Shown here in pieces: positions 849 to 17,703 of a stretch of 64,000 bases of DNA. Below the pieces are notes generated by a model. The model searched no databases. It was not told the origin of the DNA and was given only the letters and a program-made list of their open reading frames with translations. Position 1 is the first letter of the stretch. Every line of letters starts with the position of its first letter. The DNA comes from Candidatus Poribacteria bacterium (GTDB lineage Bacteria > Poribacteria > WGA-4E > WGA-3G). Location of the stretch: assembly GCA_965242965.1 (NCBI GenBank), contig OZ251518.1:371680-435679 (forward strand), written 5' to 3'. A program made the position numbers and the translations under genes.

Positions 849-3800
849 TCATGCAAATTTGATAAACGCCGCGCTGCAAATGACCTTGGGAGGGACACGG
901 ACGGACTGAATAGGTGGCACCTCGTCGCTTGCCAACGCCGACATATTGTAGCGGTGATAGAGGGTTTTCAACGCCGTTAACAACTCTTCGCCCGTGAGTT
1001 CGGCGCGATAGAGGCGGCTGATTTCGCGTTTGAGACGTTCTGTTAAGCGGCCGCGGAACGCTCGTTCAAGCGTCCCTATCGCGCGCTCTTCCGAGGTGCT
1101 GGCCAGCATCCTTAACTCCCGCAAAATGTATCGTTGCGCGCGGGACAACGTCTGTTTTGGAAAGGCGTTTCGCGTCCGACAGACTTCCGCTGCAGACGCT
1201 TTTTGGACTTGGGTGACGCGGGCGTTGTGATGGGCCGGAAGCGGTTTGCCTTGCAATTCGGCATCGCACTGGAGCAAGCGAAGGATTTCGGCAACATCGG
1301 TAGTCCGTTCAACGCCGTTTTCATCAAGCAGGACAAGCCGTCTTTGCTGTTCCTGTTCCCCGCGACAGCAGACGTAAGTGCCTTCTACTTCGGCGGGGAT
1401 GCCGGTGCGAATGCCATCTCTTAACTCGGCGATGCGCTGATATTCCGCTGGGTTTTGCCGTCTCAATTGCCGCAGCAACTCTTCCGCCTCACTTAATCCG
1501 AAGCCCGGTTCTTCGGTTTCTTCTTCCAAGAGGCTGAGTTGTTCGCCGTTCTGTTCATAAATGGCATACATCGCTTTTTCGTTGAGTTGCTCGGTGTTGT
1601 CAAGGATTGCCGCGTCTTCACCGATGGTATCGTGGATTTCCTGAATGCGGCATTGGAGTTTCTCGCGTAGCCCGAGGTTGCGTTCAATTCCCAATTCCGG
1701 CAGGAAATTGAACCCGTGGATTTCGTCAAATTGACTGCCAATCCTATCAATGCGGCCGAAGCGTTGGATTAAGCGCACCGGATTCCAGTGTAAATCGTAG
1801 TTGATGAGCATGCCGCAATCTTGCAGGTTCAATCCCTCGGCGAGGACATCTGTGGCGATGAGCGTCTCTATCTCGGTTTCATCCGACTTCAAGCGATGTT
1901 GATTGGCGTTCGGTGCGAACCGCTCGACGACGCGCCGCTTCCTATCGCTGCCGTGGCTATGGATAACCTCCGTATTCGCTGTGTGCAGGTTTCGGTAGAG
2001 ATAGTTTGCAGTATCAATATATTGTGTGAAGATGAGCCGTTTTTTGCCCTGCAGCGATGGCGATGCCAGCAACGCTTTCAACTTCTGAAGTTTCGCATCC
2101 TGCGCAGGCGTGATATGCTGAACCTTCTCGAAGATCTGGTTTAGAATACCGATGTCGTTCTGAATCGCCGCGCGAAGTTCAGGGACGTTGAAGTCACGGA
2201 TGTCGTATTGCGCGGAGGCTTCGCGGCGTGCTTCCAGAAACTGTGCAATGTCCCGTTCTTCCGGGCTGATGTCGGTTTCATCAGAAGTGCTCGCTTCATA
2301 GAGGATTTTCTGGGCATCGTCACCGGCTGGCACGATCCCATTTTCAAGCGCGCGGAGGAAATCGACGTGGACGTTATAGAACCGGGAGATAGTTGTCTTG
2401 AAGGCGTAAACACTGGATTCAAACCGTTTGAAGAGCAGAATACGCATGAGGCCCCGCAGGTTTCTACCCGCGCTCTGCAAATCCTGATACGGCGGGACAT
2501 TCTGACTCTCCTCCTTCACATAGTGCCAGAGGCCATACCGTGCATAAGTCAACTGCGCAGCGGTATCCGATTTACCGAGGTAATCGCGAATCTGTGCATA
2601 GAGCCCCTGATAGGTATCTTCAATGCTGTATTCAACCGTCTTGAGGGTGCGCTTCGGAAAGAACTGCTTGGTATCGCCGACGCGGACATAGGCGCGGCGT
2701 TCGCGGTTCAGGTAATCGGTGAATTGCGTTGCATCTACGGGTTCATCTGTCTCGGCATCGTAACCGTACCAACGCAAGATGTGGTTTCGCGTTCGGCGGA
2801 TGAGAATGTGTTGTAAAAGCGTCGGGAGGCTCCGTTCCCCGTTCTCAATCAAGCGGAAGTATTCGCGAAGATTTGGCGCGTCCACCGGCAACTGCGTTTC
2901 GTCGTTGAGATGGAAAAGTTTGAGTTGGTGGTAGATATCCCACGCGCTTTTATTGCGCGGTGTCGCTGTGAGGAAGCAGCACTTCTTATCGCCTGTTGTG
3001 AGGAATTCCTGCAAGACGCGGTAGCGTTGCGTAGTGGCATTTCGGAAGTTGTGGCTTTCGTCAACGAGGACAAAATCGCAGTGTCGATAGCGAATATCTT
3101 CAAAGAGCAATTCCCGCGCGTTTTCTTCCCCGCTACTTAAAAGCCCGGTGGAGAGGATTTGCGCGCCGAGGCGGTAGAGGACGTTATAGGATTCCCACAT
3201 GGACATAAGCGCGGGGGGACAGAGGATGAGCGGACGCGCCTGTTCAACTTGTTCAAAGTGCTTGACAATCGCCGAACCGATGTAACTTTTGCCGAGCCCG
3301 ACGACATCGGAGATGAAGACACCGCCGTATGCGTCAATAATCCGAATGGCTTGGGAAACGGCTACCTGCTGAAAATCCGCGAGTTGCGCTGTCAATTCGT
3401 CTGCCGGTGCGATGCGGCTCTCATCCGTTTCTACCCTATCTTTTACCAATTCGTAGAGCGTCTTCATGTAGATGTCATAAGGACGAACAAGCGCGAGGGC
3501 CCAGGAGGTTTGCATCTCGTCCATCAACGCCTTGTCAAAATCCTCTGCTTCGTCCCATAACGCGTCAAACCAGTCGCGGAGTTGCACCTGATTGGCGTTG
3601 CCGTGCACGACGACGTTCAATTCGGTGTTGCTGGTTAACCCTGCCAAGGTAAGATTCGATGAGCCGACGATGGAGATGCCGGATTCATATCCCGCGTTTT
3701 TGCCATAATCGAAAATATACGCCTTGGCGTGGAAACGCTCCTTCGTGTAAACCCTGACTTTCAGTTGTCCGCTAGCAATCATCTCCACGAGAGTTTTGAT

Positions 3801-4160
3801 GAGTTGCGCCGAGTCATCTGTCTGCGGCATGAATTCCATGCAGGCGCGGAGGTTTTGCGCTGTGTCACCGACGCGTGCCTTGCGTTCAACGCCGCGTGAA
3901 TAGCGGCGCGCCGACTGAATCTCGCCTACAGATGCCAATTGTCGATATCCTTCGGCGAGCTGCTCAATCGTCTCGCGTGTACTCGTATTCCCGATGAGGA
4001 GACGGAGCTCGGTGACGTTTTGCAGTGCTTCCGCGATGCCGGTAAAGCCGGTGAGGAAAAAATATCCGACAGCGAAGCGGGCGCGCTCTGTCTCCTCTAA
4101 CATGAGAGTGACGTTGTCGATGAGTTTTTCGGTGCGATTGTCGATAATGTCTTGTGGCAT
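849..4160 (-). CDS. PLD-family nuclease domain fused to an SNF2/SF2 helicase (1103 aa)
   Basis: N-terminal PLD HxK(x4)D(x6)GSxN motif (FHAKAYIFDYG...GSSNLT). Helicase motifs I VGLGKSY, II LVDESHNF, III LTATPRN, V/VI LIATDVLAEGLNL and QRFGRIDRIGS. The ATG lies 10 nt after the stop of the upstream repeat-protein gene, suggesting translational coupling. Confidence 0.8.
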   Translation of the reverse strand: MPQDIIDNRTEKLIDNVTLMLEETERARFAVGYFFLTGFTGIAEALQNVTELRLLIGNTSTRETIEQLAEGYRQLASVGEIQSARRYSRGVERKARVGDTAQNLRACMEFMPQTDDSAQLIKTLVEMIASGQLKVRVYTKERFHAKAYIFDYGKNAGYESGISIVGSSNLTLAGLTSNTELNVVVHGNANQVQLRDWFDALWDEAEDFDKALMDEMQTSWALALVRPYDIYMKTLYELVKDRVETDESRIAPADELTAQLADFQQVAVSQAIRIIDAYGGVFISDVVGLGKSYIGSAIVKHFEQVEQARPLILCPPALMSMWESYNVLYRLGAQILSTGLLSSGEENARELLFEDIRYRHCDFVLVDESHNFRNATTQRYRVLQEFLTTGDKKCCFLTATPRNKSAWDIYHQLKLFHLNDETQLPVDAPNLREYFRLIENGERSLPTLLQHILIRRTRNHILRWYGYDAETDEPVDATQFTDYLNRERRAYVRVGDTKQFFPKRTLKTVEYSIEDTYQGLYAQIRDYLGKSDTAAQLTYARYGLWHYVKEESQNVPPYQDLQSAGRNLRGLMRILLFKRFESSVYAFKTTISRFYNVHVDFLRALENGIVPAGDDAQKILYEASTSDETDISPEERDIAQFLEARREASAQYDIRDFNVPELRAAIQNDIGILNQIFEKVQHITPAQDAKLQKLKALLASPSLQGKKRLIFTQYIDTANYLYRNLHTANTEVIHSHGSDRKRRVVERFAPNANQHRLKSDETEIETLIATDVLAEGLNLQDCGMLINYDLHWNPVRLIQRFGRIDRIGSQFDEIHGFNFLPELGIERNLGLREKLQCRIQEIHDTIGEDAAILDNTEQLNEKAMYAIYEQNGEQLSLLEEETEEPGFGLSEAEELLRQLRRQNPAEYQRIAELRDGIRTGIPAEVEGTYVCCRGEQEQQRRLVLLDENGVERTTDVAEILRLLQCDAELQGKPLPAHHNARVTQVQKASAAEVCRTRNAFPKQTLSRAQRYILRELRMLASTSEERAIGTLERAFRGRLTERLKREISRLYRAELTGEELLTALKTLYHRYNMSALASDEVPPIQSVRVPPKVICSAAFIKFA

Positions 4161-4170
4161 AGAACCTGCC

Positions 4171-6299
4171 TTATTTCAGGAGCTCTAATAGTGCATTTAT
4201 ACCTTTTACGCCGAGCACAGACAAAACTGTTGCAAAAGCGATGCTGACAATTCCGCCAAGGACGATCTTCCAGGGAGTCAGCGCGCCCTTCAATGCCTCA
4301 ACGGATTTTTCAGTGTTCACCAACTTTTCGTTCATATTGTCTAGTTGCACATCCCGTTTTGCGTCGCGTTCGGCACTAGCGGCGAGATGAGCTTCTGTCT
4401 TGGCTTGGAATTTCCCAATCTGCCGGAGGGACTCGTCAATGCTGCCTAAGCGTGCATCGCGTGCAGTGTCGCGTTCCGCACTGGCGGCGAGGAGTGCTTC
4501 TGTCTTGGCTTGGAATTCGCCAATCTGCCGGAGGGATTCGTCAATGCTGCCTAAGCGTGCATCGCGTGCAGTGTCGCGTTCCGCACCGGCGTTGAGGAGT
4601 GCTTCTGTCTTGGCTTGGAATTTCCCAATCTGCCGGAGGGATTCGTCAATGTTGCCTAAGCGTGCATCGCGTGCAGTGTCGCGTTCCGCACCGGCGTTGA
4701 GGAGTGCCTCTGTTTTCGCCTGGAATTTCGCGATGTCATCTAAGCGCGCGTCCCGTTCGGCATCGCGCGCTGCACTGGCATTGAGGAGTGCCTCTGTTTT
4801 CGCTTGGAATTCCCCAATCTGTTGGAATAACTCCCCGAGGTGTTCCAAGCGTGCATCGTGTGCAGCGTCGCGTTCCGCACCGGCGTTGAGGAGTGCCTCT
4901 GTTTTCGCTTGGAATTTCGCGATGTCGTCTAAGCGTGCATCCCATTCCGCGCCGCGTTCTGCACTAGCGGTGAGGAGTGCCTCTGTCTTCGTTTGGAATT
5001 CGCCAATCTGTTGGAACAACCCCTCAAGGTGTTTCAAACGTGCATCGCGCTCGGTATCGCGTTCGGCACTGGCGGTGAGGAGTGCTTCTGTCTTGGCTTG
5101 GAATTCGCCAATCTGCCGGAGGGACTCGTCAATGCGGACGAAGTGTGCATCGCGTTCGGCATCGCGTTCGGCACTGGCGGCGAGATGGGCCTCTGTCTTG
5201 GCTTGGAATTTCGCGATGTCCTCTAAGCGTGCATCCCATTCCGCGCCGCGTGCTGCACTAGCGTTGAGGAGTGCCTCGGTCTTGGTTTGGAATTCGCCAA
5301 TCTGTTGGAACAACCCCTCAAGGTGTTTCAAACGGGCATCGCGCTCGGTATCGCGTTCGGCACTGGCGTGAGGAGTGCTTCTGTCTTTGCTTGGAATTCC
5401 CCAATCTGCCGGAGGGACTCGTCAATGCGACCGAAGTGTGCATCGCGTGCAGCCTCGCGTTCTGCACTCGCGGCGAGATGGGCCTCTGTTTTCGCTTGGA
5501 ATTTCGCGATGTCATCTAAGCGTGCATCCCATTCCGCGCCGCGTGCTGCACTAGCGTTGAGGAGTGCCTCTGTCTTGGCTTGGAATTTCGCGATGTCATC
5601 TAAGCGTGCATCCCGTGCAGCGTCGCGTTCGGCACTGGCGTTGAGGAGTGCCTCGGTCCTGGTTTGGAATTCCCCAATCTGTTGGAACAACCCCTCAAGG
5701 TGTTCCACTCGGGCATCGCGTTCGGTGTCGCGCGCTGCACTGGCGGCGAGATGGGCCTCTGTCTTCACTTGGAATTCTCCGATTTGGCGGAGGGACTCGT
5801 CAATGCGACCGAAGTGTGCATCGCGTTCGGTGTCGCGCGCTGCACTGGCGTTGAGGAGTGCCTCAGTCTTGGTTTGAAATTCGCCAATCTGTTGGAACAA
5901 CCCCTCAAGGTGTTCCACTCGGGCATCGCGTTCGGTGTCGCGCGCTGCACTAGCGGTGAGATGAGCCTCTGTCTGCTCTTGAAACGCCGCTATCCGCTTG
6001 AACAATTCCTCAAGACTATCTAACCGCGTATCGCGTTTGGCATCTAATGCCTCAACTGCAGTCAATCGTGCATGCGTTTGGGTCTGGAGTTCTACAACGC
6101 GTTGGAGCAATTCCTCAGTGCCGTCCAGTCGTGCGTCGCGCGCTGCGTCGCGCTCAGCACTGGCAACGAGATACGCATCTCTTTTGACATCCAGTTCAGC
6201 ACTACGTTCTTGTATCTTCTCGATCCTCTCCAACCGAGGAATGCTTTCGTGACGTGCCGGCTCCGAAGCATTTTTAGGTTGATTATCGGTAGTTTTCAT
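4171..6299 (-). CDS. Tail-anchored coiled-coil protein made of about 17 tandem 35-aa (105-bp) repeats (unit ~RDARLGSIDESLRQIGEFQAKTEALLNASAERDTA). The frame is broken once near 5330-5375 (ORFs 5328..6299 and 4171..5331).
   Basis: 105-bp periodicity is visible in the DNA (e.g. 4441 vs 4546). C-terminal hydrophobic helix WKIVLGGIVSIAFATVLSVLGV. RBS AAGGAGAAACC before the ATG at 6299. One G is missing in the unit at about 5371-5376 relative to other units (cactggcgtgagg vs cactggcggtgagg). Confidence 0.6.
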
Positions 6300-7276: not shown

Positions 7277-7465
7277 TCAACTCCGCGCCTTCTTAAGCCT
7301 AGTTTCAACGAGATTGATAACCGCCTCGTAAACGCCATCACGCTCGCCTTGCGTCAATTCCAAGATGTCAAAGATGACGTTGTCAATCGCGATGCGCGCC
7401 GGTGAAGGCGATAAAACGTCCCATTCTTCGGATGCGAGGAGGGATGCATTTACCCCCCCCCTCAA
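7277..7465 (-). CDS. Probable displaced C-terminal segment of the adjacent methyltransferase (62-aa ORF in an alternate frame, beginning inside the G9 tract)
   Basis: Overlaps the MTase ORF by 83 nt in another frame. Its peptide (…DNVIFDILELTQGERDGVYEAVINLVETRLKKA) looks protein-like, whereas the MTase tail after the tract (KCIPPRIRRMGRFIAFTGAHRD) does not. Confidence 0.4.
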   Translation of the reverse strand: MRGGVNASLLASEEWDVLSPSPARIAIDNVIFDILELTQGERDGVYEAVINLVETRLKKARS

Positions 7466-10400
7466 AATTCATGTCTGTTAAGTTAGGGTTAACACATCGT
7501 AGCTCTCCCAAATCCGAGGTTTGGAGTTCTAACTCCCCATATCCTAGGTTTGAGCGACCGTTCACGTTCACCATCAACTGGAAGAAAGTAGAATTGAGGG
7601 AGAAACAGAGAGGTATCCTCAACTCAAGTGCGCATTGGAGTTCCATAAACTTGCCAGTCACATAACACCCCTCACTGGCATACAATGTTTTTGCCGTTGA
7701 ACGCATCCGGTGCGCAAAACTCATATACGGAGGCGGGCGTTTGCCCACATCATACCATCGCCGTCTAGATCGGATGCTCGGCCGCTGAGGCAGTTTCTGG
7801 CTTTCACCCGATTCAATGTATGCCAACGCAGCGGTGCCTCTTAAGGCTTCTCTCTCCTTTTGACACAGAAAGAGTTGATGTGGTGATTGTTCGGGGCGAA
7901 TCAACAGGCTCTCAGTGACTCTCCTGTCGTTGACAATCGGGTGTAAAAACTCTGGCTCAATATGCCACGCCGAAATCGTCTCCGCATCAAGGATGAAAAA
8001 CTGGTTTGCCCCGCTCATGATTCCTCGCCGAATCTGAGCGATGTCGCCGACACGGACGAGTTTATCCGAGCCTTTTTCTAGTAATGTCCAATAGATGTCG
8101 GGAGCGCGCAGATACTTCGCGCCCCATTTGTTTCCGGTATACTTCGTCTTTGCATCCATTCCGGCGGCTAAAAGTGCATCCTGCGAGAGAAGGTGAATTC
8201 GATATTCAGGCAGAGCATTCCGCTGGATTTCGGTTTCGATTTCGTAAAAGATGACAGGATCCAAAATAGCCTCAAACGGTTCGGTAAAGTTAACAAACCG
8301 CACAATGTCTTGCAAACCTGATGCGCTATCTCTAACCGGGGCGGAGATGAGACAAATAGCAGTGTTGATATTTACGGCTTTGAAGGAACGTCGTGCCGCG
8401 TTGTCCAAAACCAGTTTGAGATGACACCGCTTAAGGAGGAATTCCTGCAAATCTTTGCCGAAGTCCGCATCTAACCACGATCTGGATGTGATAGTGCAGA
8501 AGGTTCCTTTGGGATTTAGCAACGAGAGTCCGTGAAAGTAGAAGTAGACGTAGAGATCGCTGTTGCCATCTAGTTTATGCTTCACGGCAGACGCGGGGTT
8601 TTCCTTCGTATCCTTCTCCGGTTGATACCCGAAGAATGCAGGGAACGCCTGATAAACGGAACGCGCCAACTTGGCTTTATACGCCTTCGTGTTAGCGGGT
8701 GTAACCGCGTCTCGGGCTAGCGTCGGGTCTGTGAGTTTTTTCGTTGAAACGTAAGGCGGGTTTTCTATCACGATGTCAAAACCACCATACTGTTTGAAAA
8801 TCTCAACGAAGGCAATGTCCCACACGAAAGGTGGAACTGCATCTGACGTAAGGGCATGCTGGGCACGTTGGAGGTTGTTGAGATTCGCCTGTTGAAGTGC
8901 CAACTCCTGTTGCTTTTGCCGAGTTGCAAGATCTAATTGCGCTGCCTGGGGTTTCTCAATCCCGTCAAGCGTCAGTTGTTCAGCCGGATCTTCAAGCCAT
9001 TCCTGTAAACCTGCAATGCCTTCCAAAATTTGGCTTTCCTGCGACTGCAGTGTCTCCCGAAAGAGCAAGTTCTCGGCGCGTTGCACATCCGCTTTCTCAC
9101 GATATTTCCGCTCACGTTCGTTGTGATAAAACTTCAGTTTCTCTGTCTGGTGGAATACGATTTTGCGCGAGATGTCAGTCGGCACGCCGCTGCCCAACGC
9201 GCGCGTCTGCGCGAGGTTCATCCCACCGATGTCCTGCACCAGACTATCGCCGTGACGAATGTTAAACGAAAAATCAGGCAGCAAGGGCTCCTCGCGAATC
9301 TGCAGTTCCGCGGTGGAAATCTCTGCCTCAATGATGAGCGCGAGCCAGAGGCGTAACTCGGCAACTTTGCATGCCCACGGCATCACGTCTACGCCGTAGA
9401 GATTCTTGCCGATAATCGCCTTGCGGCGTTCAAACCTTGAGGTAACAGATGCACCGAGGTGCCGTGCGGCGCGTTCCCCCAGGTCATCGAGAATATGGAG
9501 CATGCCGACGAGAAACGAACCGCTGCCACACGCCGGATCCAACACCGTGAGACGGTTCAGATGCGTCGCGATATCACCCCACTGCGCGGCGAGGTGGGCA
9601 TCGGCATCTTCCTTCTCTGTTTCATCGAACGTAAAGAGTGCGGCGTAAAATTGATGCTTATGCGCCTCACCGATGTGATTTGCGAGGTTATCTACGAGCG
9701 CGAGACGGCACATCATATCTATCTCGATGCGCGGCGTGTAGAAGATGCCGGCATCGCCGCGTTCATCGGTTTCAGCGGAGACACTGACGAGACTCTCGTA
9801 GACTTTGCCGATCATCTCGGGGTCTACGGCGACTTCCTGTTCCAGCGGGGTATCCTCGGCGATGGTGAAGTTATATCCCTCGAAGAACTGGAAGATGTCG
9901 CGCCATAAATCATCGGGAATCGTGGTGGCATACTCGGTATCCCATTCGTTTTCTCGGAATAAGCCGCCGTTGAGATAGGGCGCGTGCTGAAGCGTTTCGC
10001 GGATGTTGTCAGGAAAGTAACGATATCCGCCGTGAAACTTCTGATTGAAAGCGGCGAAGAAGAGGACGTTGAGCCACTTTGCCACGAAGGTATCCGCTGG
10101 TTGCGTTGCGTTTTGATACGCCTGCCAAAACGTGTGCAGGAAATCGGTGTCGTTTCCGAGCCACCGTTTTCGCTGGATGAAATAGAGGAAGAGGCAGCGG
10201 CTGAGGAATTGTTGGGCTGCATCGTGCGCCCACTTTTTATCAGCGGTTTGCGTTTCCAACTCGGTTTGGAGGTTTCTGAAGACGCGCTGATAGTCGGCGA
10301 AAAACTGCGCTGTCACGGCATCGACATCGAAGGCGGCATCGTGCTGTTTGGTAATTTGCAGAGGTGTCAGCAGCTCTGGATTTGGGAAGAGGCTCTCCTG

Positions 10401-10886
10401 TTGGCCGTCAATGGCTATCGTCGCCAGATCGAGCATTGCGATACGTTCGGCGGCGGTGCGGAGTTTTTCATCGGGCGCGACAGTGATGCGCCGGAATCGG
10501 TGGCGTGCCTTGTGTTTCTTGCTTGCCTCGCGGACGAGTGTGACGTTGACGAAGTGCCAGTGGTCTTGCGCAATATTGCTAAAGATGTAGAGCGCGTGCG
10601 GGAAGCGCGTCTGCAAGTGCGCGATGACGCGGCGTTCGGCGGTCTTGCGGGGTGTTTCGGTATTGAGGCGCGCGTATATGATGTGAAAGTCGTTATCCCT
10701 ACCCCCGGCGGCAAAGCGTCGCGGTGCCTCGGCGAGGCAGTCGGCGATGGCTTCCGGGATGTTCTCAATCGGTTCATCGATGCGGTGATAATTGAGTTCT
10801 ACCCAAAAGAGTTCGCGCAGGGGTTCGATGCCGCGGAGGTTTTGTAGCAGAGTTAAGATGCGTTCGGTGTTTTCGGGTGTTGGCAT
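7383..10886 (-). CDS. Large gamma-class N6-adenine DNA methyltransferase, 1167 aa (Type IIG / BREX PglX / DISARM DrmMI-like). The true C-terminus is probably in the 7277..7465 frame.
   Basis: Motif X AGIFYTPR, motif I VLDPACGSGSFLV, motif IV IENPPY. A long N-terminal region precedes the MTase core. The C(9) run at 7453..7461 sits at the frame junction. Confidence 0.75.
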   Translation of the reverse strand: MPTPENTERILTLLQNLRGIEPLRELFWVELNYHRIDEPIENIPEAIADCLAEAPRRFAAGGRDNDFHIIYARLNTETPRKTAERRVIAHLQTRFPHALYIFSNIAQDHWHFVNVTLVREASKKHKARHRFRRITVAPDEKLRTAAERIAMLDLATIAIDGQQESLFPNPELLTPLQITKQHDAAFDVDAVTAQFFADYQRVFRNLQTELETQTADKKWAHDAAQQFLSRCLFLYFIQRKRWLGNDTDFLHTFWQAYQNATQPADTFVAKWLNVLFFAAFNQKFHGGYRYFPDNIRETLQHAPYLNGGLFRENEWDTEYATTIPDDLWRDIFQFFEGYNFTIAEDTPLEQEVAVDPEMIGKVYESLVSVSAETDERGDAGIFYTPRIEIDMMCRLALVDNLANHIGEAHKHQFYAALFTFDETEKEDADAHLAAQWGDIATHLNRLTVLDPACGSGSFLVGMLHILDDLGERAARHLGASVTSRFERRKAIIGKNLYGVDVMPWACKVAELRLWLALIIEAEISTAELQIREEPLLPDFSFNIRHGDSLVQDIGGMNLAQTRALGSGVPTDISRKIVFHQTEKLKFYHNERERKYREKADVQRAENLLFRETLQSQESQILEGIAGLQEWLEDPAEQLTLDGIEKPQAAQLDLATRQKQQELALQQANLNNLQRAQHALTSDAVPPFVWDIAFVEIFKQYGGFDIVIENPPYVSTKKLTDPTLARDAVTPANTKAYKAKLARSVYQAFPAFFGYQPEKDTKENPASAVKHKLDGNSDLYVYFYFHGLSLLNPKGTFCTITSRSWLDADFGKDLQEFLLKRCHLKLVLDNAARRSFKAVNINTAICLISAPVRDSASGLQDIVRFVNFTEPFEAILDPVIFYEIETEIQRNALPEYRIHLLSQDALLAAGMDAKTKYTGNKWGAKYLRAPDIYWTLLEKGSDKLVRVGDIAQIRRGIMSGANQFFILDAETISAWHIEPEFLHPIVNDRRVTESLLIRPEQSPHQLFLCQKEREALRGTAALAYIESGESQKLPQRPSIRSRRRWYDVGKRPPPYMSFAHRMRSTAKTLYASEGCYVTGKFMELQCALELRIPLCFSLNSTFFQLMVNVNGRSNLGYGELELQTSDLGELRCVNPNLTDMNFEGGGKCIPPRIRRMGRFIAFTGAHRD

Positions 10887-12424: not shown

Positions 12425-13561
12425 CTACCAGTTGGTATAGGCACCGTCGTCACGGTGATAGCCAGTCGGCGGGCCATATTCTTGGGTTGAGACGTTCGTG
12501 ATCGCGTCTTCGTTGAATTCAATGCCGAGCCCCGGTGCTTCGGGCGGCAAGAGATGTCCCGATTCAAACGGCACTTGCACCGGAAATACATCGGTGAGAT
12601 CGGACATCGGTGCGCGCGGCAATTCTTGCACGCCGACGAGTGAAGAGGACAGACAGAGATGCAGACACGCCGCTGCGGATACTGGCCCCAACGGGTTGTG
12701 CGGTGCGAGGTGGATGTAGTGCGTTTCACACCAGCCTGCAACTTTCTTCGCTTCTGTTAACCCGCCGACGATGCACACGTCAACGCGGCAGTAATCGAGC
12801 AGTTCTTCCTCGATTACCTCTCGGAATGCCCACTTGCTGTCGAATTGTTCACCGATGGCGAGTGGCACCGAGGTTTGCTGTCGTATGCGCCGGAGACTAG
12901 CGGGGTTTTCGCTGCGAAGCGGGTCCTCGATGAAAAACGGGTGGTAAGTTTCCACCTTATTGCAGAATTCGAGACTATCCACCGGATCGAGGCGGGTATG
13001 CACATCGATAAGGATTTCCACATCGTCTCCGAGTGCTTGCCGCACGGCTTGCGCCTGCGCGAGTCCGTGTTGCACGGCGCGTCGCGGTTCAAAGTTGCCG
13101 GCGGCACCGGTATCATCGGCGAGTCCCCATCGGACGAATTTCCAGCCGGCGGCGTGGGTTTGGCGGCAGTTTTCGACGAGTGCGTCAATTGAGCCGCCGC
13201 CGTTGTGCGGATAGCAGGCGACTTTATCGCGTGTGCGCCCGCCGAGAAGTTCATAGACAGGGACGTTCAGGGCTTTGCCTTTGATGTCCCAAAGGGCAAT
13301 ATCGACGGCACTGACAGCGGCGGATTGAACGACACCGCCGGGGAAGAAGCCGCCTCGGAACATCACCTGCCACAGGTGCTCAATCCGAAACGGATCTGCG
13401 CCGATGAGGAACGGTTCAAACGAGCGGACAACTTCTGCGAGGGCGAGTGAGCGTCGTCTTAAGCCGCCTTCGCCGACTCCGTAAATGCCGGCATCCGTTT
13501 CGACTTTGACGAAGAAATGTCCGGATGCCGAGACAAAGGATTTGACGTTGGTAATTTTCAT
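12425..13561 (-). CDS. Enolase-superfamily dehydratase (D-galactonate/D-mannonate dehydratase-like)
   Basis: N-terminus MKITNVKSF...FVKVETDAGIYGVGEG resembles DgoD/ManD. Enolase-superfamily metal-ligand region IDVHTRL...FIEDP. Confidence 0.65.
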   Translation of the reverse strand: MKITNVKSFVSASGHFFVKVETDAGIYGVGEGGLRRRSLALAEVVRSFEPFLIGADPFRIEHLWQVMFRGGFFPGGVVQSAAVSAVDIALWDIKGKALNVPVYELLGGRTRDKVACYPHNGGGSIDALVENCRQTHAAGWKFVRWGLADDTGAAGNFEPRRAVQHGLAQAQAVRQALGDDVEILIDVHTRLDPVDSLEFCNKVETYHPFFIEDPLRSENPASLRRIRQQTSVPLAIGEQFDSKWAFREVIEEELLDYCRVDVCIVGGLTEAKKVAGWCETHYIHLAPHNPLGPVSAAACLHLCLSSSLVGVQELPRAPMSDLTDVFPVQVPFESGHLLPPEAPGLGIEFNEDAITNVSTQEYGPPTGYHRDDGAYTNW

Positions 13562-13603
13562 CAATTTTCCTCCTTAGTTAATCAGTGTGTTTCATAAATC
13601 GTT

Positions 13604-13790
13604 CAACGGCGCGGGGATAGGCTCCCGCGCTACGATAAAAAACGCCATCCCTCACCGTAGGGCGAGGGCCTGTCCCTCGCCATGCGTTTTGCTGTCAGAC
13701 CGCCTCACCCCTGTAGGTCAGGATCGCCTGATCCTGACCTGTTTGTGATTAGGCGATCACAAACTACAGAGGTGGGCCCGATGCGCGCCT
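13604..13790. repeat. REP cluster (family 1 plus family 2 double hairpin 13706..13767)
   Basis: Direct reading. Confidence 0.85.
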
Positions 13791-13834: not shown

Positions 13835-14563
13835 TTAATCAGTATGTGCGAATTGCGGTGCCGTTTCCAATTCCGATGCTTTGGTTTGCGTGTTGACATC
13901 TTCACATCCCGGTGGTTGTGCGCCGCGTATCCAGGGTTTCGGGCGTTTTTCCCATGGCAGTTTCGTGAAGCCGAGCCATCGGCAGAGGCGCGGGATATGT
14001 CCAGGGCGCGCAATACGGAGATGCTCAATCTCCGGCACGATGATAGGCACTACTTCCCAGCGTCCATCGGGATAGGCGGCATTTTCCCGGTGTCGCGCGA
14101 TGGGGTTAGGTTTCGGTATGTCGGTGTTTTTGAGCACCAAGGTTTCTATGTGTCGTTCGATGGCGAGTGCTGCTTTTGCATGGACTTCCATTGCGGTTTT
14201 GCCGTGTGCGGTGCAGCCGGGCAAATCTGGAACGCTGAGCCGGTAATGCCTCCGCCGTTTGCGGGTTATCAAGACCGGATAGTGGCGTAGTTCGGGCATC
14301 GTTATCGTCACGGTGTCCCACTGCAGTGCATCGGCATATCCCGGGTCGTTCTGATGGTAGGCGATGTCCTGGGGTTCAGGAATCGGATCATCTTCAAGCA
14401 TCATGCTTTCAAGATGTCCTTCGATTGCTTCCACGGCGCGCGTCAGCACCTGCTCTACGGTGTCTGCTGCAGTAATGCACCCTGGCAAATCGGGGACGAC
14501 GATGCCGTAGATGCTGCCCGGGTCTTTGAAAATCGCAACAGGATATTGCATAAAAGTTTTCAT
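13835..14563 (-). CDS. hicB: HicB-family antitoxin with two tandem HicB/UPF0150 domains (copy 1)
   Basis: YPVAIFKDPGSIYGIVVPDLPGC..A.TVEQVLTRAVEAIEGHLE repeated twice within the protein. Three paralogous copies in tandem. Confidence 0.75.
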   Translation of the reverse strand: MKTFMQYPVAIFKDPGSIYGIVVPDLPGCITAADTVEQVLTRAVEAIEGHLESMMLEDDPIPEPQDIAYHQNDPGYADALQWDTVTITMPELRHYPVLITRKRRRHYRLSVPDLPGCTAHGKTAMEVHAKAALAIERHIETLVLKNTDIPKPNPIARHRENAAYPDGRWEVVPIIVPEIEHLRIARPGHIPRLCRWLGFTKLPWEKRPKPWIRGAQPPGCEDVNTQTKASELETAPQFAHTD

Positions 14564-14632
14564 ATCTCCAACTCCGAGTTTCTAATTTCTTGTCTTAAGG
14601 TAGACAGTTTGGTAGAGACCTCATCAGTTGTT

Positions 14633-14863
14633 TTAGTTCCACTTCCATCCGGCTTGTTCATAGATACTTCGCACCGTCCCGATCGGTATGTCTTTGTTTG
14701 GATGTGGAACAGATACCGTGCCTGACTTGTCGGTGTGCCTGAATTGATGGTGAGATCCTTTGATGCGATGTAGGAACCATCCTTCGCTTTCAAGCTGCTT
14801 TATCATGCGTCGCGAGTCTCGGAGACGTTTCCAACTGGGCCGCTTCGATTTGCGATGTTTCAT
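14633..14863 (-). CDS. hicA: HicA-family mRNA interferase toxin (copy 1)
   Basis: LESEGWFLHRIKGSHHQFRHTDKSGTVSVPHPNKDIPIGTVRSI matches the HicA/YcfA signature. Confidence 0.8.
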   Translation of the reverse strand: MKHRKSKRPSWKRLRDSRRMIKQLESEGWFLHRIKGSHHQFRHTDKSGTVSVPHPNKDIPIGTVRSIYEQAGWKWN

Positions 14864-14875
14864 CTGTCCCCGGCG

Positions 14876-15589
14876 TTAAGCCTTGGCGTGTTCCGGTAGC
14901 ATCCCTTCGTTTTCGGCGGTGCTGTCGGTTTCCGGTGGTTGTGCGCCGCGTATCCAGGGTTTCGGGCGTTTCTCCCATGGCAGTTTCGTGAACCCGAGCC
15001 ATCGACAGAGGCGCGGGATACGGCCAGGGCGCGCAATACGGAGATGCTCGATCTCCGGCACGATGATAGGCACCACTTCCCAATGTCCATCGGGACATGC
15101 AGCATTTCCTCGGTGTTGCGCGATGGGGTTGGGTTTCGGTATGTCCCTATTTTTGAGTATTCGTGCTTCCATGTGTCGTTCAATGGCGAGTGCTGCTTTT
15201 GCATGGACTTCCATTGCGGTTTTGCCACGCGCGGTACAGTCGGGCAAATCTGGGACGCTGAGCCGATAGTGCTTCCGCCGTTTGCGGGTTATCAAGACAG
15301 GATAGTGGCGCAGTTCTGGAAACGCTACCGTTACCTCCTCCCACTGCCCCCCAGCATATTCTGGATATGCCGGATTGTTCTGATGGTAGGCGATGTCCTT
15401 AGGTTCGGGAATCGCATCTCCATCAATTAACATGCCGCCGAGATGACATTTAATCGCTTCCACGGCCTGGGTCAGAACGTCCTCGACTGTATCGCCCCAG
15501 GTATAACACCCAGGTAAGTCTGGAACAATTACGCCGTAGTCGCTATCCGGGTCTTTGTGGATGACAATCGGATACCTAAAGATTTTCAT
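14876..15589 (-). CDS. hicB: HicB-family antitoxin, tandem-domain (copy 2)
   Basis: Paralog of 13835..14563. Confidence 0.75.
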   Translation of the reverse strand: MKIFRYPIVIHKDPDSDYGVIVPDLPGCYTWGDTVEDVLTQAVEAIKCHLGGMLIDGDAIPEPKDIAYHQNNPAYPEYAGGQWEEVTVAFPELRHYPVLITRKRRKHYRLSVPDLPDCTARGKTAMEVHAKAALAIERHMEARILKNRDIPKPNPIAQHRGNAACPDGHWEVVPIIVPEIEHLRIARPGRIPRLCRWLGFTKLPWEKRPKPWIRGAQPPETDSTAENEGMLPEHAKA

Positions 15590-15626
15590 AATTCTAACTC
15601 CTGTTCCTACTTGGCATTTAATGGCT

Positions 15627-15857
15627 TTAGTTCCACTCCCAGCCGGTCTGCCGATAGATATTCCGCAATGTGCTTATTGGGATATCTTTGTTTGGATGCG
15701 GCACCGAAGCTTTGCCCGGTTTGTCGGGATGTCTGAATTGATAGTGATCTCCGTTGGTTTGGACCCAGAACCATCCTTCGCTTTTAAGTTGTTTTATCAT
15801 GCGCCTTGAGTCGCGGAGGCGTTTCCAACTGGGCCGCTTCGATTTGCGATGTTTCAT
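15627..15857 (-). CDS. hicA: HicA-family toxin (copy 2; motif NGDHYQF instead of KGSHHQF)
   Basis: First 25 aa identical to copy 1, the rest divergent. Confidence 0.7.
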   Translation of the reverse strand: MKHRKSKRPSWKRLRDSRRMIKQLKSEGWFWVQTNGDHYQFRHPDKPGKASVPHPNKDIPISTLRNIYRQTGWEWN

Positions 15858-15869
15858 CTGTCCCCGGCG

Positions 15870-16568
15870 TTAAGCCTTGACGTGTTCCGGTAGCATCGCT
15901 TCGTTTTCGGCGGTGCTGTCGGTTTCCGGTGGTTGTGCGCCGCGTATCCAGGGTTTTGGGCGTTTTTCCCATGGCAGTTTCGTGAACCCGAGCCATCGGC
16001 AGAGGCGCGGGATACGCCCGGGACGCGCGATACGGAGATGCTCAATCTCCGGCACGATGATAGGCACCACTTCCCAATGTCCATCGGAATAGGCGGGATT
16101 TCCCCGGTGTTGCGCGATGGGTTTGGGTTTCGGTATGTCGGTGTTTTTGAGCACCAAGGCTTCCATGTGTCGTTCAATGGCGAGTGCTGCTTTTGCATGG
16201 ACTTCCGTTGCGGTTTTGCCGTGCGCGGTGCAGCCGGGCAAGTCCGGGACGCTGAGTTGATAGTGCTTCCGCCGTTTGCGGGTTATCAAGACCGGATAGT
16301 GGCGCAGTTCGGGTAAGGTTATGGTAACCCAATCCCACCGTTGGAAGTCGGCATAGTGCGGATTGTTTTGATGAGCGGCGATGTCCTGGGGTTCAGGAAT
16401 CAGGTCTCCATCAATCAACATGCCGCCGAGATGACATTTGATGGCTTCCACGGCTTGGATAAGCACTTCCTCAACGGTATCCGCTGCGGTAATGCATCCG
16501 GGTAAGTCCGGAACGAGGATGCAGTAATCACTATCCGGGTCTTTGTCAATCACGACAGGGTAACGCAT
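15870..16568 (-). CDS. hicB: HicB-family antitoxin, tandem-domain (copy 3)
   Basis: Paralog. RBS GGGAGGA upstream. Confidence 0.75.
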   Translation of the reverse strand: MRYPVVIDKDPDSDYCILVPDLPGCITAADTVEEVLIQAVEAIKCHLGGMLIDGDLIPEPQDIAAHQNNPHYADFQRWDWVTITLPELRHYPVLITRKRRKHYQLSVPDLPGCTAHGKTATEVHAKAALAIERHMEALVLKNTDIPKPKPIAQHRGNPAYSDGHWEVVPIIVPEIEHLRIARPGRIPRLCRWLGFTKLPWEKRPKPWIRGAQPPETDSTAENEAMLPEHVKA

Positions 16569-16638
16569 GAAACTTTCCTCCCTCTAATCATCTGTCTTGG
16601 TGTGGCCAACTTGGCATAAAGATGCCATCAATTGTGAT

Positions 16639-16869
16639 TCAATTCCACTCCCAGCCGGCCTGTCTATAGATGCTCCGCACCGCCGTTATTGACAAGTCTT
16701 TTTTAGGGTGCTGAACAGAGACTTTGCCCGGTTTGTCGGGGTGTTTGAATTGGTAGTGATCTCCGTTGGTTTGGGCCCAGAGCCATCCTTCGCTTTTGAG
16801 TTGCTTTATCATGCGCCTTGAGTCGCGGAGGCGTTTCCAACTGGGCCGCTTCGATTTGCGATGTTTCAT
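16639..16869 (-). CDS. hicA: HicA-family toxin (copy 3)
   Basis: Paralog. Its N-terminal 25 aa are identical to the other two copies. Confidence 0.7.
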   Translation of the reverse strand: MKHRKSKRPSWKRLRDSRRMIKQLKSEGWLWAQTNGDHYQFKHPDKPGKVSVQHPKKDLSITAVRSIYRQAGWEWN

Positions 16870-16887: not shown

Positions 16888-17703
16888 CTACCCCGTCTCC
16901 AGCGTTGGAACGTTGTCCTGACAGTAAACCGGTCGGAAAAGCGTCTGGCGTTTGAACGGCATCTCAGCGAGGTGCTGCGGGTGCGGTTCCCACTTGTGCC
17001 ACTTGTTACCGACGGTATTGTAGCAGTGGAAAATCGCGACGCGGTCTGCCATCTCATCTGTCCATCTCGCGCCAGTGTGCGTAATGGCTTCCGTGAAGAC
17101 TAGCATGGAGCCTGCTGGGCACGTGTAGTCCTCCCACAGCGGCGAATCGCGGTTTTCTGTCGATTTGGGTGCGGGGAACGCGCCTTTGTGGCTGCCCGTA
17201 AGGAACATCGTGCCGCCGCGGCCTTTTTCGACAGGGTTCAGTTCCCAAACGACCCGAGTTAAGCCGCTGTGCGCCTTGTCATGGTGCAGATGATACGTAT
17301 GCGAATTGCCGGGAAAGTTGAGCATCCCGCGGCCGCCGTGCGGCCGGAAGTTATCATGTCCGTTTTCCCGAATCGTGAGAAACGTTCCTTCCAACCGAAA
17401 CCCGTAGCAATTTTCATTGGCATACCCGGATGTCAAAAACTCATTCATGAACCCGAGGACAACGGGATGATCGATGAGCGTTTCCAAAGGCCCGCCGATT
17501 GGAGAACGATGGTGTTCTGGAATCGCTTGTGGTTCTCGCTTGAGTTGATAACAGAATTCGCGCATTTCCTCGATTTCTGTTTCGCTCAGCACCGCCGGCA
17601 TCAGGAGCCAGCCGCGGGTATCAAAGAGATACCGTTGCTCCTCTGAAAGCGGCATCGGAGGTAGATTGTCTGCGTTCGTCGTCGGATGTGGCATCAGTTT
17701 CAC
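16888..17703 (-). CDS. Phytanoyl-CoA dioxygenase (PhyH) family Fe(II)/2-oxoglutarate oxygenase
   Basis: PhyH-like sequence with the HxD...H facial-triad context (HLHHDKAH, TGSHKG). Confidence 0.65.
   Translation of the reverse strand: MKLMPHPTTNADNLPPMPLSEEQRYLFDTRGWLLMPAVLSETEIEEMREFCYQLKREPQAIPEHHRSPIGGPLETLIDHPVVLGFMNEFLTSGYANENCYGFRLEGTFLTIRENGHDNFRPHGGRGMLNFPGNSHTYHLHHDKAHSGLTRVVWELNPVEKGRGGTMFLTGSHKGAFPAPKSTENRDSPLWEDYTCPAGSMLVFTEAITHTGARWTDEMADRVAIFHCYNTVGNKWHKWEPHPQHLAEMPFKRQTLFRPVYCQDNVPTLETG

What the first reader, a model, noticed from the sequence alone, without database searches (positions are those of the whole stretch)
13835..16869. Three tandem hicA-hicB cassettes with double-domain HicB antitoxins and partially homogenised hicA genes
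A hicA-hicB unit of about 1 kb is repeated three times head-to-tail on the minus strand, immediately downstream of a PhyH gene. Each HicB (232-242 aa) contains two consecutive HicB/UPF0150 folds rather than the usual HicB fold plus a DNA-binding domain. The three hicA genes share an identical first 75 nt (25 aa), which is a gene-conversion signature. They diverge afterwards: copies 2 and 3 replace the K-G-S-H-H core by N-G-D-H-Y. This suggests an evolving toxin-antitoxin array, possibly acting as an addiction or defence module.
Basis: partly seen in the sequence, partly recalled or inferred. Interest (0 to 1): 0.55.

Follow-up and report, generated by a model that had tools for sequence, protein, structure and literature searches.

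The report
Polymorphic tandem HicAB toxin-antitoxin array
A sponge-symbiont-type (Poribacteria) chromosome carries three intact, selection-maintained copies in a row of a HicA/HicB toxin-antitoxin pair whose antitoxin has two HicB folds and no DNA-binding domain; it is an unusual variant of a well-known system, not a new kind.

Summary
The three head-to-tail hicA-hicB units on the minus strand (13835-16869) are real. All six genes are intact and under purifying selection, so they are not decaying duplicates. Each HicB has two HicB folds, shown by Pfam, PDB profile matches and a confident AlphaFold model. These are followed by a conserved but apparently disordered basic tail, with no RHH or HTH domain.

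The claim that the hicA genes share an identical first 75 nt is wrong. There are 2-8 differences, almost all synonymous. The 24 residues they encode include an N-terminal extension of about 14 residues that canonical HicAs lack. The low-divergence block is the hicB second domain plus tail, running into the next hicA 5' end (dS 0.2-0.4). The hicA core and hicB first domain have dS 1.3-1.8.

All three HicAs keep the Gly and His that align with the catalytic site of B. pseudomallei HicA.

The same PhyH-[hicAB]n-enolase locus occurs in related Poribacteria. It holds 1-3 units in different cassette combinations, even between genomes 97% identical in the flanks. hicA is sometimes deleted or frameshifted; hicB never is.

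In this clade the second HicB domain has flipped from acidic to basic.

Verdict: a new variant of a known type II toxin-antitoxin system, of moderate interest.

The parts
16639..16869 (-). hicA-1 (76 aa; NGDHY type): HicA toxin with an N-terminal basic extension
   Evidence: Pfam HicA_toxin E 7.9e-16 over residues 18-73. G36 and H38 are conserved. It starts 18 nt after the PhyH stop codon.
15870..16568 (-). hicB-1 (232 aa): two HicB folds plus a basic tail
   Evidence: Pfam HicB_lk_antitox E 5e-41 with 2 stretches. A 100% identical protein (P0001) is on record from a 5.66-Mb contig.
15627..15857 (-). hicA-2 (76 aa; NGDHY type)
   Evidence: Pfam HicA_toxin E 5.3e-18. It starts 12 nt after the hicB-1 stop codon.
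14876..15589 (-). hicB-2 (237 aa): two HicB folds plus a basic tail
   Evidence: Pfam HicB_lk_antitox E 1.9e-38 with 2 stretches.
14633..14863 (-). hicA-3 (76 aa; KGSHH type), orthologous in type to the single, frameshifted hicA of L002
   Evidence: Pfam HicA_toxin E 6.9e-23. It matches 4c26 (B. pseudomallei HicA H24A) at E 4.7e-18, with H38 aligned to the mutated catalytic His.
13835..14563 (-). hicB-3 (242 aa): two HicB folds plus a basic tail, with a different extreme C-terminus that marks the end of the array
   Evidence: Pfam E 3.8e-40 with 2 stretches. AlphaFold2 model md9d37c547685 has pLDDT of about 90 for residues 1-180 and below 50 for 194-242. Foldseek finds 6g26_A at rmsd 1.5 A.
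15927..16310 (-). Low-divergence block of unit 1: hicB-1 domain 2 (basic) plus the conserved tail (residues 87-214)
   Evidence: This block is 83-98% nt identical among units, against 36-78% in the hicA 3' part, the spacer and domain 1. dS is 0.18-0.41 against 1.3-1.5, and tail dN is 0-0.011. Domain 2 has net charge +5 and pI 9.7.
14933..15316 (-). Low-divergence block of unit 2 (hicB-2 domain 2 plus tail)
   Evidence: (D1).
13910..14293 (-). Low-divergence block of unit 3 (hicB-3 domain 2 plus tail)
   Evidence: (D1).
16798..16869 (-). Coding sequence for the identical first 24 residues of HicA (MKHRKSKRPSWKRLRDSRRMIKQL), which contain the ~14-residue N-terminal extension. The same segment lies at 15786-15857 and 14792-14863.
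   Evidence: The peptide is identical in all three copies, and every codon difference in it is synonymous. The motif RP(S/T)WK(R/Q)LRNSR is kept in distant Poribacteria HicAs. About 14 of these residues (the extension) are absent from the closest canonical 59-64 aa HicAs; the remainder aligns with their N-terminus.
16888..17703 (-). PhyH-family dioxygenase gene, the conserved upstream boundary of the array
   Evidence: Pfam PhyH E 5.9e-06. It is syntenic in L001, L002, L005 and L085-L088.
12425..13564 (-). Enolase-superfamily (MR_MLE) gene, the conserved downstream boundary of the array
   Evidence: Pfam MR_MLE_C E 5.5e-53. It is syntenic in all related loci.

Best explanation
This is a chromosomal array of three functional paralogous type II HicAB toxin-antitoxin cassettes in a Poribacteria-lineage genome.

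Shown:
- Every hicA and hicB is intact and under purifying selection.
- HicA keeps the Gly/His catalytic site.
- HicB consists of an acidic canonical HicB fold (domain 1), a second HicB fold that has become basic in this clade (domain 2), and a strongly conserved basic tail predicted to be disordered. It has no RHH or HTH.
- The array has a variable block (hicA 3' part, spacer, hicB domain 1) alternating with a low-divergence block (hicB domain 2, tail, next hicA 5' end).
- Related genomes carry 1-3 units at the same locus in different combinations, and hicA is lost before hicB.

Inferred:
- HicA is an mRNA-cleaving toxin, as in characterised HicAs.
- Acidic domain 1 of the HicB encoded just downstream binds and blocks it. 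This would explain why each HicA C-terminal half always travels with one domain-1 type.
- The basic domain 2 plus tail replaces the missing DNA-binding/dimerisation domain. It may act as a nucleic-acid-binding, oligomerisation or degradation-tag module.
- Unequal crossing-over and gene conversion within the shared block add, remove and reshuffle cassettes while keeping cognate toxin-antitoxin interfaces together.
For: Family assignment:
- Pfam hits for all six genes are well above the cut-offs.
- HicA is closest to B. pseudomallei HicA (4c26/6g26). H38 aligns with the H24A position, and G36/H38 are invariant.
- Both HicB halves match solved HicB N-domains. The AlphaFold2 model shows two confident HicB folds and a tail with pLDDT below 50. 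The Foldseek top hits are all HicB.

Selection and mosaic structure:
- dN/dS is about 0.15-0.2 in domain 1 and the hicA core, 0-0.05 in the tail, and 0 in the hicA N-terminal extension. dS is 1.3-1.8 in the variable block and 0.18-0.41 in the shared block.
- The sliding identity profile shows the same two blocks.

Comparative evidence:
- Syntenic loci carry 3A3B (window, L088), 2A3B (L085, L087), 2A2B (L001, L086), a frameshifted hicA plus hicB (L002, identical in three contigs), and an orphan hicB (L005).
- Flanking genes are 96.3-97.6% identical to L001, L085 and L088, yet the cassette sets differ.
- Each HicA C-terminal half is always paired with one domain-1 type. Mantel r is 0.71 for domain 1, against 0.51 for domain 2 and 0.53 for the tail.
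- Domain 1 has net charge -12/-13. Domain 2 has +5/+6 here, against -12 in distant Poribacteria homologues.
- The 76-aa HicA plus double-HicB pair is conserved across Poribacteria.

Translation signals:
- hicB genes have GGAG-type Shine-Dalgarno sequences, while hicA has only weak ones, visible in the alignment. This fits antitoxin being made in excess over toxin.
Against: - No experiment or expression data are available, so toxicity, neutralisation and cognate specificity are inferred from homology.
- Which HicB domain binds HicA was not modelled, because no multimer prediction was available.
- The link between the HicA C-terminal half and domain 1 can be explained by physical adjacency alone (about 40-70 nt apart), so the Mantel result is weak evidence for co-evolution.
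- No sigma-70-like promoter or operator palindrome was found in or upstream of the array. hicA-1 starts 18 nt after PhyH, so autoregulation may not exist at all.
- The proposed role of domain 2 plus tail rests only on charge and conservation. hhalign found no relation between the tail and the RHH of single-domain relatives.
Confidence: 0.6

Rival explanations
1. The three units are decaying duplicates: non-functional copies left over from a tandem duplication.
For: The extreme C-terminal 18-24 residues of HicB evolve neutrally between units 1/2 and unit 3, with dN about equal to dS at roughly 1. In relatives, hicA copies are frameshifted or deleted.
Against: All six ORFs in the window are intact. 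dN/dS is well below 1 in every functional segment despite dS up to 1.8. The catalytic Gly and His are invariant. Pfam scores for all copies are well above the thresholds.
Confidence: 0.04
2. The array is primarily an anti-phage (abortive infection) defence locus. Cassette diversity within a species is maintained by phage-driven diversifying selection, with each HicA/HicB type responding to a different trigger.
For: Conspecific genomes, 97% identical in the flanks, carry different cassette combinations. A type IIG restriction-modification gene (7383-10886) and an HKD+Snf2 gene (849-4160; PADLOC E 2e-83) lie 3-13 kb downstream. Gerdes 2024 (PMC10865869) argues that hicA contexts often point to defence.
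Against: The array sits between conserved metabolic genes (Gfo/Idh/MocA, PhyH, MR_MLE, a class-III aminotransferase) and is vertically inherited at that site across about 80-97% flank identity. PADLOC has no match for HicA or HicB. No phage or mobile-element genes adjoin it. dN/dS gives no sign of positive selection, though this was tested only as region averages.
Confidence: 0.25
3. The low divergence of hicB domain 2 plus tail and of the hicA 5' end reflects constraint on the DNA or RNA itself, such as internal promoters, operators or mRNA structure for the next cassette, rather than gene conversion.
For: The block spans the hicB-to-hicA junction, where an internal promoter or ribosome-binding region for the next hicA would have to lie. 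dS is reduced but not zero, at 0.18-0.41.
Against: The block is about 450-600 nt long, far more than a promoter or operator needs. The closest pair of units changes along the block: B1-B3 in domain 2, B2-B3 in the tail, and B1 identical to B2 at the end. Relatives contain obvious chimeras, namely L088 unit 2 and L001 unit 2. Both are signatures of recombination. No promoter-like site was found. Unit 3 has the same conserved block although no hicA follows it.
Confidence: 0.15
4. The hicB genes are the selected element. Surplus or orphan double-HicB proteins would act as anti-addiction or antitoxin 'sponges' against incoming HicA toxins, or have a HicA-independent role, and the hicA genes are dispensable passengers.
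For: The number of hicB genes is at least the number of hicA genes in all eight loci. An orphan hicB is retained intact in L005, L085 (unit 3) and L087 (unit 1), and L002 keeps hicB beside a frameshifted hicA. In other Poribacteria the same double-HicB module is joined to a different toxin family, Gp49/HigB-like.
Against: In the window all three hicA genes are intact with dN/dS of about 0.15-0.2 and an invariant catalytic site. Loss of the toxin before the antitoxin is the expected decay order for any toxin-antitoxin pair and does not show an independent HicB function.
Confidence: 0.15

Closest known systems
Classical hicAB type II toxin-antitoxin modules with an RHH-type HicB (Gerdes 2024 Class 4), e.g. 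Burkholderia pseudomallei HicAB (PDB 6g26, 4c26) and Yersinia pestis HicA3B3 (4p78)
   Same: The gene order is hicA then hicB. HicA aligns over its whole dsRBD core, including the catalytic His (E 5e-18). HicB domain 1 superposes on the B. pseudomallei HicB N-domain at 1.5 A with 33% identity. The closest single-domain sequence relatives in Poribacteria are of this type (P0100, P0105 with PF07878 RHH).
   Different: The RHH domain is replaced by a second HicB fold plus a tail of about 40 conserved residues predicted to be disordered. HicA carries an extra basic N-terminal extension of about 14 residues. The module is triplicated in tandem.
Gerdes 2024 Class 7 hicBA modules (PMC10865869): HicB of 216-233 aa made of two DUF1902 domains, with no DNA-binding domain
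   Same: The antitoxin is of similar length, is built from two HicB-clan folds, and lacks a recognisable DNA-binding domain.
   Different: The gene order is reversed: hicBA there, hicAB here. The domains there are DUF1902, while here both are PF15919 HicB_lk_antitox. Nothing in the section read mentions a conserved basic tail, an N-terminal HicA extension or a tandem array.
Gerdes 2024 Class 1 hicAB modules (small HicB without a DNA-binding domain)
   Same: The order is hicAB, there is no DNA-binding domain, and HicA size falls within the 60-85 aa range.
   Different: Class 1 HicBs are 67-97 aa with a single fold. The HicBs here are 232-242 aa with two folds and a tail.
Sporadic tandem-HicB-fold proteins in other lineages (P0128 195 aa, P0146 189 aa, P0195 257 aa, P0247 193 aa)
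   Same: They have two HicB-like folds in one chain and no DNA-binding domain.
   Different: They are only 34-45% identical and lack the conserved tail. In P0146 and P0247 the two halves look more like each other (by eye), suggesting separate internal duplications; this was not computed. Their gene context was not examined.

Membership tests
HicA toxin family (Pfam PF07927; dsRBD-fold mRNA interferase) | Sequence match to the HicA_toxin profile above the curated cut-off | tested here: met
   Scores are 58.4, 65.3 and 81.0 bits against a cut-off of 27.
HicA toxin family (Pfam PF07927; dsRBD-fold mRNA interferase) | Conserved catalytic His, with the preceding Gly, in the G-x-H motif | tested here: met
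   H38 aligns with the Ala of the H24A mutant structure 4c26. G36 and H38 are invariant in the three copies and in 7 homologues. That H24 is catalytic comes from my own knowledge of the B. pseudomallei work.
HicA toxin family (Pfam PF07927; dsRBD-fold mRNA interferase) | RNase activity and growth inhibition when expressed without HicB | not testable with these tools
   This needs expression experiments.
HicB antitoxin family (Pfam PF15919 / HicB clan; partial RNase H fold) | HicB fold present | tested here: met
   It is present twice per protein. Pfam gives 2 stretches. The profile matches solved HicBs with both halves. The AlphaFold2 model shows two beta-beta-beta-alpha-beta units at pLDDT of about 90. 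Foldseek gives 1.5 A to 6g26_A.
HicB antitoxin family (Pfam PF15919 / HicB clan; partial RNase H fold) | Encoded next to a hicA gene in one orientation | tested here: met
   Each hicB starts 37-70 nt after a hicA stop codon. The same pairing is seen in L001, L085-L088, L007, L010, L011 and L013.
Classical HicB (Gerdes Classes 3 and 4) | C-terminal HTH or RHH DNA-binding domain | tested here: not met
   Pfam finds no HTH or RHH. The tail is predicted to be disordered. hhalign of the tail profile against the RHH segment of single-domain relatives aligns only the last 8 residues of the HicB fold.
Gerdes Class 7 (hicBA, two-DUF1902 HicB) | Gene order hicB then hicA | tested here: not met
   hicA precedes hicB in every unit.
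Gerdes Class 7 (hicBA, two-DUF1902 HicB) | Two DUF1902 domains separated by a helix | tested here: not met
   Pfam assigns PF15919 (and weakly PF21748), with no DUF1902 hit at E <= 0.01. In the model the two folds abut directly at ELRHYP.
Gerdes Class 7 (hicBA, two-DUF1902 HicB) | Long HicB (216-233 aa) without a DNA-binding domain | tested here: met
   The HicBs are 232-242 aa with no DNA-binding domain.
Type II toxin-antitoxin module (generic) | Antitoxin protein neutralises the toxin by direct binding, and the antitoxin is labile | not testable with these tools
   This is inferred from homology to solved HicAB complexes. Indirect support comes from eight syntenic loci, where hicA is lost or broken while hicB is kept, and never the reverse.

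The most novel reading that the evidence does not exclude
Poribacteria may carry a distinct HicAB class, one that does not match any of the class definitions read in the 14-class survey (Classes 1-8). It would combine an N-terminally extended HicA with a tandem-HicB-fold antitoxin whose conserved disordered tail takes over the role of the DNA-binding domain. In the window's clade the second fold has also been charge-reversed into a new nucleic-acid-binding or regulatory module. The cassettes would form a recombining, within-species hypervariable array whose diversity is maintained by selection, for example by phage or other invading HicA-bearing elements.
Probability: 0.25. Interest if true: 0.55.

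Novelty: new variant of a known kind. Interest (0 to 1): 0.4.

Why it matters
HicAB is a well-studied toxin-antitoxin family, yet how HicBs without a DNA-binding domain are regulated is an acknowledged open point (Gerdes 2024, PMC10865869). This locus offers a natural series for addressing it:
- the same antitoxin scaffold with either an acidic or a charge-reversed second fold;
- a strongly conserved disordered tail;
- three co-resident paralogous pairs, which must either be insulated from each other or cross-neutralise.

The locus also shows a toxin-antitoxin array being born, reshuffled and decaying. The toxin is lost first, at one fixed chromosomal site, among genomes as close as 97% identity. 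That makes it a useful system for studying specificity evolution in sponge symbionts, which are known to be rich in such modules. It does not reveal a new mechanism by itself.

Tried and rejected
1. Tail as a degenerate RHH. I aligned it by eye with the RHH of single-domain Poribacteria HicBs and then ran hhalign on 68 tails against 22 RHH segments. Only the last strand of the HicB fold aligned, so I rejected this.
2. Frameshift or mis-called frame for the odd W/R/P-rich tail. Rejected: the tail has 5-8 synonymous and 0-1 non-synonymous differences between units, and the motif is kept in homologues about 50% identical.
3. Assembly artefact. Rejected: the units differ by 7-60% along their length, and independent assemblies show 2-3-unit arrays at the same site.
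4. Sigma-70 promoters and intrinsic terminators. There were no promoter hits, and terminator-like hits were at or below the shuffled expectation. The hairpins downstream of hicB-3 belong to genome-wide REP-like repeats.
5. Rfam scan of the whole window: no hits.
6. PADLOC: no model matches HicA or HicB.
7. Exact look-up of HicB-1 in the contig index: not on record.
8. HicA homologue search. It returned only 7 proteins, and gene callers mostly omitted these short hicA genes in related assemblies. I therefore recovered HicAs from the locus DNA instead.
9. The 1705-aa protein with '11 HicB stretches' (P0201) is a low-complexity repeat protein and a spurious hit.
10. Mirror-tree test of which domain co-evolves with HicA. 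Domain 1 scores higher (r 0.71 against 0.51), but the test is confounded by physical linkage, so I do not treat it as proof.


Full report
**1. What is in the sequence**

On the minus strand between 13835 and 16869 there are three head-to-tail units of 994-1029 nt. Each unit holds a 76-aa ORF followed 37-70 nt later by a 232-242-aa ORF.
- The short ORFs (16639-16869, 15627-15857, 14633-14863) match Pfam HicA_toxin, with E-values from 8e-16 to 7e-23.
- The long ORFs (15870-16568, 14876-15589, 13835-14563) match HicB_lk_antitox, with E-values from 5e-41 to 2e-38 and two matched stretches each.
- A PhyH-family gene (16888-17703) ends 18 nt before hicA-1.
- An enolase-superfamily MR_MLE gene (12425-13564) follows hicB-3 after 270 nt. 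That gap is filled with REP-like hairpin repeats that are common throughout the window.

**2. The double-domain HicB is real**

- A profile of the family hits solved HicB N-terminal domains with both halves independently. Positions 5-97 match B. pseudomallei HicB 6g1n at E 4e-16. Positions 92-161 match 6u0i and E. coli HicB 6hpb at E 2e-7 to 7e-7.
- An AlphaFold2 model of HicB-3, built on a 58-sequence alignment, has two consecutive beta-beta-beta-alpha-beta units. pLDDT is about 90 through residue 180 and falls below 50 from 194 to the end.
- Foldseek against the PDB returns only HicB-type structures. The best is 6g26_A at rmsd 1.5 A over 82 columns, and every hit with E <= 1e-4 covers just one of the two folds.
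- Pfam finds no RHH or HTH domain.
- A profile-profile comparison of the tail with the RHH segment of the closest single-domain relatives aligns nothing beyond the last HicB strand.

**3. The 'identical first 75 nt' claim is wrong, and the mosaic lies elsewhere**

The hicA genes differ at 2 positions (units 1 and 2) and at 8 positions (either of these against unit 3) within the first 75 nt. Only the first 38 nt are identical in all three. The first 24 residues are identical because all codon differences there are synonymous (dN 0; dS 0.15 and 0.72).

Nei-Gojobori estimates by segment show two regimes:

| Segment | dS | dN |
|---|---|---|
| hicA core | 0.68-1.8 | 0.125-0.25 |
| hicB domain 1 | 1.3-1.5 | 0.20-0.29 |
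| hicB domain 2 | 0.22-0.41 | 0.06-0.07 |
| hicB tail | 0.18-0.31 | 0-0.011 |

- A sliding identity profile shows the same pattern. Identity is 83-98% from the ELRHYP junction between the two folds to the AQPP end of the tail in all three units.
- For units 1 and 2 the high-identity block continues across the stop codon and about 150 nt into hicA.
- Identity is only 36-78% over the rest of hicA, the spacer and domain 1.
- The closest pair of units changes along the shared block, and relatives contain clear chimeras. I therefore read the block as homogenised by recombination or conversion, though not recently, since dS is not zero.
- The last 18-24 residues of HicB evolve neutrally between units 1/2 and unit 3.
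- All functional segments have dN/dS well below 1, so none of the copies is decaying.

**4. The toxins look active**

- HicA-3 aligns over its whole core with B. pseudomallei HicA (4c26, E 5e-18). Its H38 sits opposite the Ala of the H24A mutant used for that structure.
- G36 and H38 are invariant in the three copies and in seven database homologues.
- The KGSHH to NGDHY change therefore leaves the G-x-H motif intact.
- Compared with the closest canonical HicAs (59-64 aa), these proteins carry about 14 additional N-terminal residues, within MKHRKSKRPSWKRLRD (net charge +9 over the first 19 residues).

**5. Where it comes from and how it varies**

HicB-1 is 100% identical to a database protein from a 5.66-Mb contig. 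A scan of one genome per species placed all clear full-length relatives with two folds in one chain in Candidatus Poribacteria, apart from one 'uncultured bacterium' record.

Seven related loci show the same gene order: Gfo/Idh/MocA, PhyH, [array], MR_MLE, class-III aminotransferase. tblastn and ORF inspection give the following array contents:

| Locus | hicA | hicB | Note |
|---|---|---|---|
| Window | 3 | 3 | |
| L088 | 3 | 3 | |
| L085 | 2 | 3 | third hicA absent |
| L087 | 2 | 3 | first hicA absent |
| L001 | 2 | 2 | |
| L086 | 2 | 2 | |
| L002 | 1, frameshifted | 1 | 1-nt deletion, identical in three separately assembled contigs |
| L005 | 0 | 1 | hicB starts 25 nt after PhyH |

- hicB copies are never fewer than hicA copies.
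- Flanking genes of L001, L085 and L088 are 96.3-97.6% identical to the window. L002, L086 and L087 are 86-92% identical, and L005 is about 80%.
- At least four cassette types can be told apart by the HicA C-terminal half and the HicB domain-1 N-terminal half, and these two always go together.
- The near-conspecific genomes carry different sets: window I-II-IV; L085 I-II-IV without hicA; L088 III, a I/IV chimera, then II; L001 III-II.
- Unit 3 of the window is the type found as the sole copy in L002.

**6. The wider family**

More distant Poribacteria (L007, L010, L011, L013) have a single pair. It consists of a 76-aa HicA with the same extension motif (RP[ST]WK[RQ]LRNSR) and a 201-203-aa double-fold HicB with a shorter tail, roughly (K)I(Q/R)(V/I)xQPGPIQRFFxWF.
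- In those proteins the two folds are 64% identical to each other and both are acidic (net -13 and -12).
- In the window's clade the two folds are only 40% identical. Domain 1 stays acidic (-12/-13, pI 4.1), but domain 2 is basic (+5/+6, pI 9.7-10.0).
- The tail in the window's clade is lengthened by the LPWEKRPKPWIRGAQPP segment.
- An exhaustive search of 1.84 billion cluster representatives found one full-length representative at E <= 1e-30. It also found a handful of unrelated-looking tandem-HicB-fold proteins of 189-257 aa elsewhere.
- The architecture is therefore rare but not unique.

**7. Comparison with what is known**

Gerdes (2024, PMC10865869) sorted HicA contexts into 14 classes.
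- Classes 3 and 4 are hicAB with an HTH or RHH HicB.
- Class 1 is hicAB with a small, single-fold HicB (67-97 aa) lacking a DNA-binding domain.
- Class 7 is hicBA with a 216-233-aa HicB made of two DUF1902 domains and no DNA-binding domain.

The locus here has hicAB order, two PF15919 folds, a conserved tail and an extended HicA. It fits none of these definitions. A two-fold HicB without a DNA-binding domain has nevertheless been described as a concept. I therefore rate the finding as a new variant of a known kind.

**8. How it most likely works**

Shown: the components, their integrity, the selection acting on them, the mosaic structure and the copy-number polymorphism.

Inferred from characterised HicAB systems:
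- HicA cleaves mRNA.
- The acidic domain 1 of the downstream HicB binds HicA and blocks its active site.
- The basic domain 2 plus tail substitutes for the missing dimerisation/DNA-binding domain, as a nucleic-acid-binding, oligomerisation or degradation-tag module.
- Recombination in the shared block changes copy number and cassette order without separating a toxin from its antitoxin interface.

Two further points:
- hicB genes have GGAG-type ribosome-binding sites, and hicA has weak ones (sequence).
- No sigma-70-like promoter was found in the array, and hicA-1 abuts PhyH. The array may therefore be co-transcribed with its metabolic neighbours.

**9. Biological role**

A defence role cannot be excluded. 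A type IIG restriction-modification gene and an HKD+Snf2 gene lie 3-13 kb downstream, and cassette content varies within a species. However, the array is embedded in a vertically inherited metabolic gene cluster, and PADLOC has no match for it. An anti-addiction role for surplus HicBs is also possible.

**10. Limits**

- There are no expression or activity data.
- No multimer modelling was possible.
- The selection estimates are region averages over three sequences.
- The co-variation test is confounded by physical linkage.
- The cassette typing rests on eight loci.

Noticed in passing
window 13606-13783, and more than 60 other intergenic sites across 1-64000: The window is full of REP-like palindromic repeats. 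One is the hairpin GGCGAGGGACAGGCCCTCGCCCTACG, with at least 40 copies. Another is a double-hairpin element of about 86 nt, CTGTAGTTCGGGATCGCCTGATCCCGAAC...GGTCAGGATCAGGCGATCCTGACCTACAGA, with 21-22 copies. One cluster fills the 270-nt gap after hicB-3, which is only about 30 nt in L002.
   Followed up: partly
window 4171-6299 (- strand): Two adjacent ORFs (386 aa and 323 aa) are built almost entirely from 105- and 84-nt tandem repeats. They have no credible Pfam or PADLOC family. They lie between a type IIG restriction-modification gene and an HKD+Snf2 gene.
   Followed up: no
window 849-4160 and 7383-10886 (- strand): These are defence-type genes downstream of the array. One is an HKD(PLD)+Snf2 helicase protein (PADLOC PDLC01075, E 2e-83, with DrmD-like hits). 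The other is a 1167-aa MmeI/Eco57I-like type IIG restriction-methyltransferase (PADLOC E 1e-50). The type IIG gene is syntenic in L001, L002 and L086.
   Followed up: partly
L006 5522-6609; L012 321-1055; protein P0091: In some Poribacteria the same double-HicB-plus-tail module carries an N-terminal peptide, KYSGSSFDDFLKEEGIYEEV. That peptide is typical of antitoxins partnered with Gp49/HigB-like toxins. The module there follows a Gp49-like (PF05973) toxin gene instead of hicA, so the antitoxin scaffold appears to be reused with a different toxin family.
   Followed up: partly
window hicA N-termini (e.g. 14837-14863) and hicB tails (e.g. 13910-13960): The HicA extension motif KRPSWKRLR resembles the clade-specific HicB tail motif KRPKPWIRG. 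Both are invariant among the three units. The similarity could be chance or could point to a shared binding partner. It was not tested.
   Followed up: no
L014 5956-6585 (Tepidisphaerales MAG): Two separate single-fold HicB-like ORFs (114 aa and 90 aa) with no DNA-binding domain lie head-to-tail. This looks like an unfused counterpart of the two-fold HicB.
   Followed up: no
L001, L002, L085-L088 (ENA metagenome assemblies): The gene calls stored for these assemblies omit every 76-aa hicA gene, although the ORFs are intact. As a result the protein databases hold almost no members of this extended HicA group, and the homologue search returned only 7 hits.
   Followed up: yes
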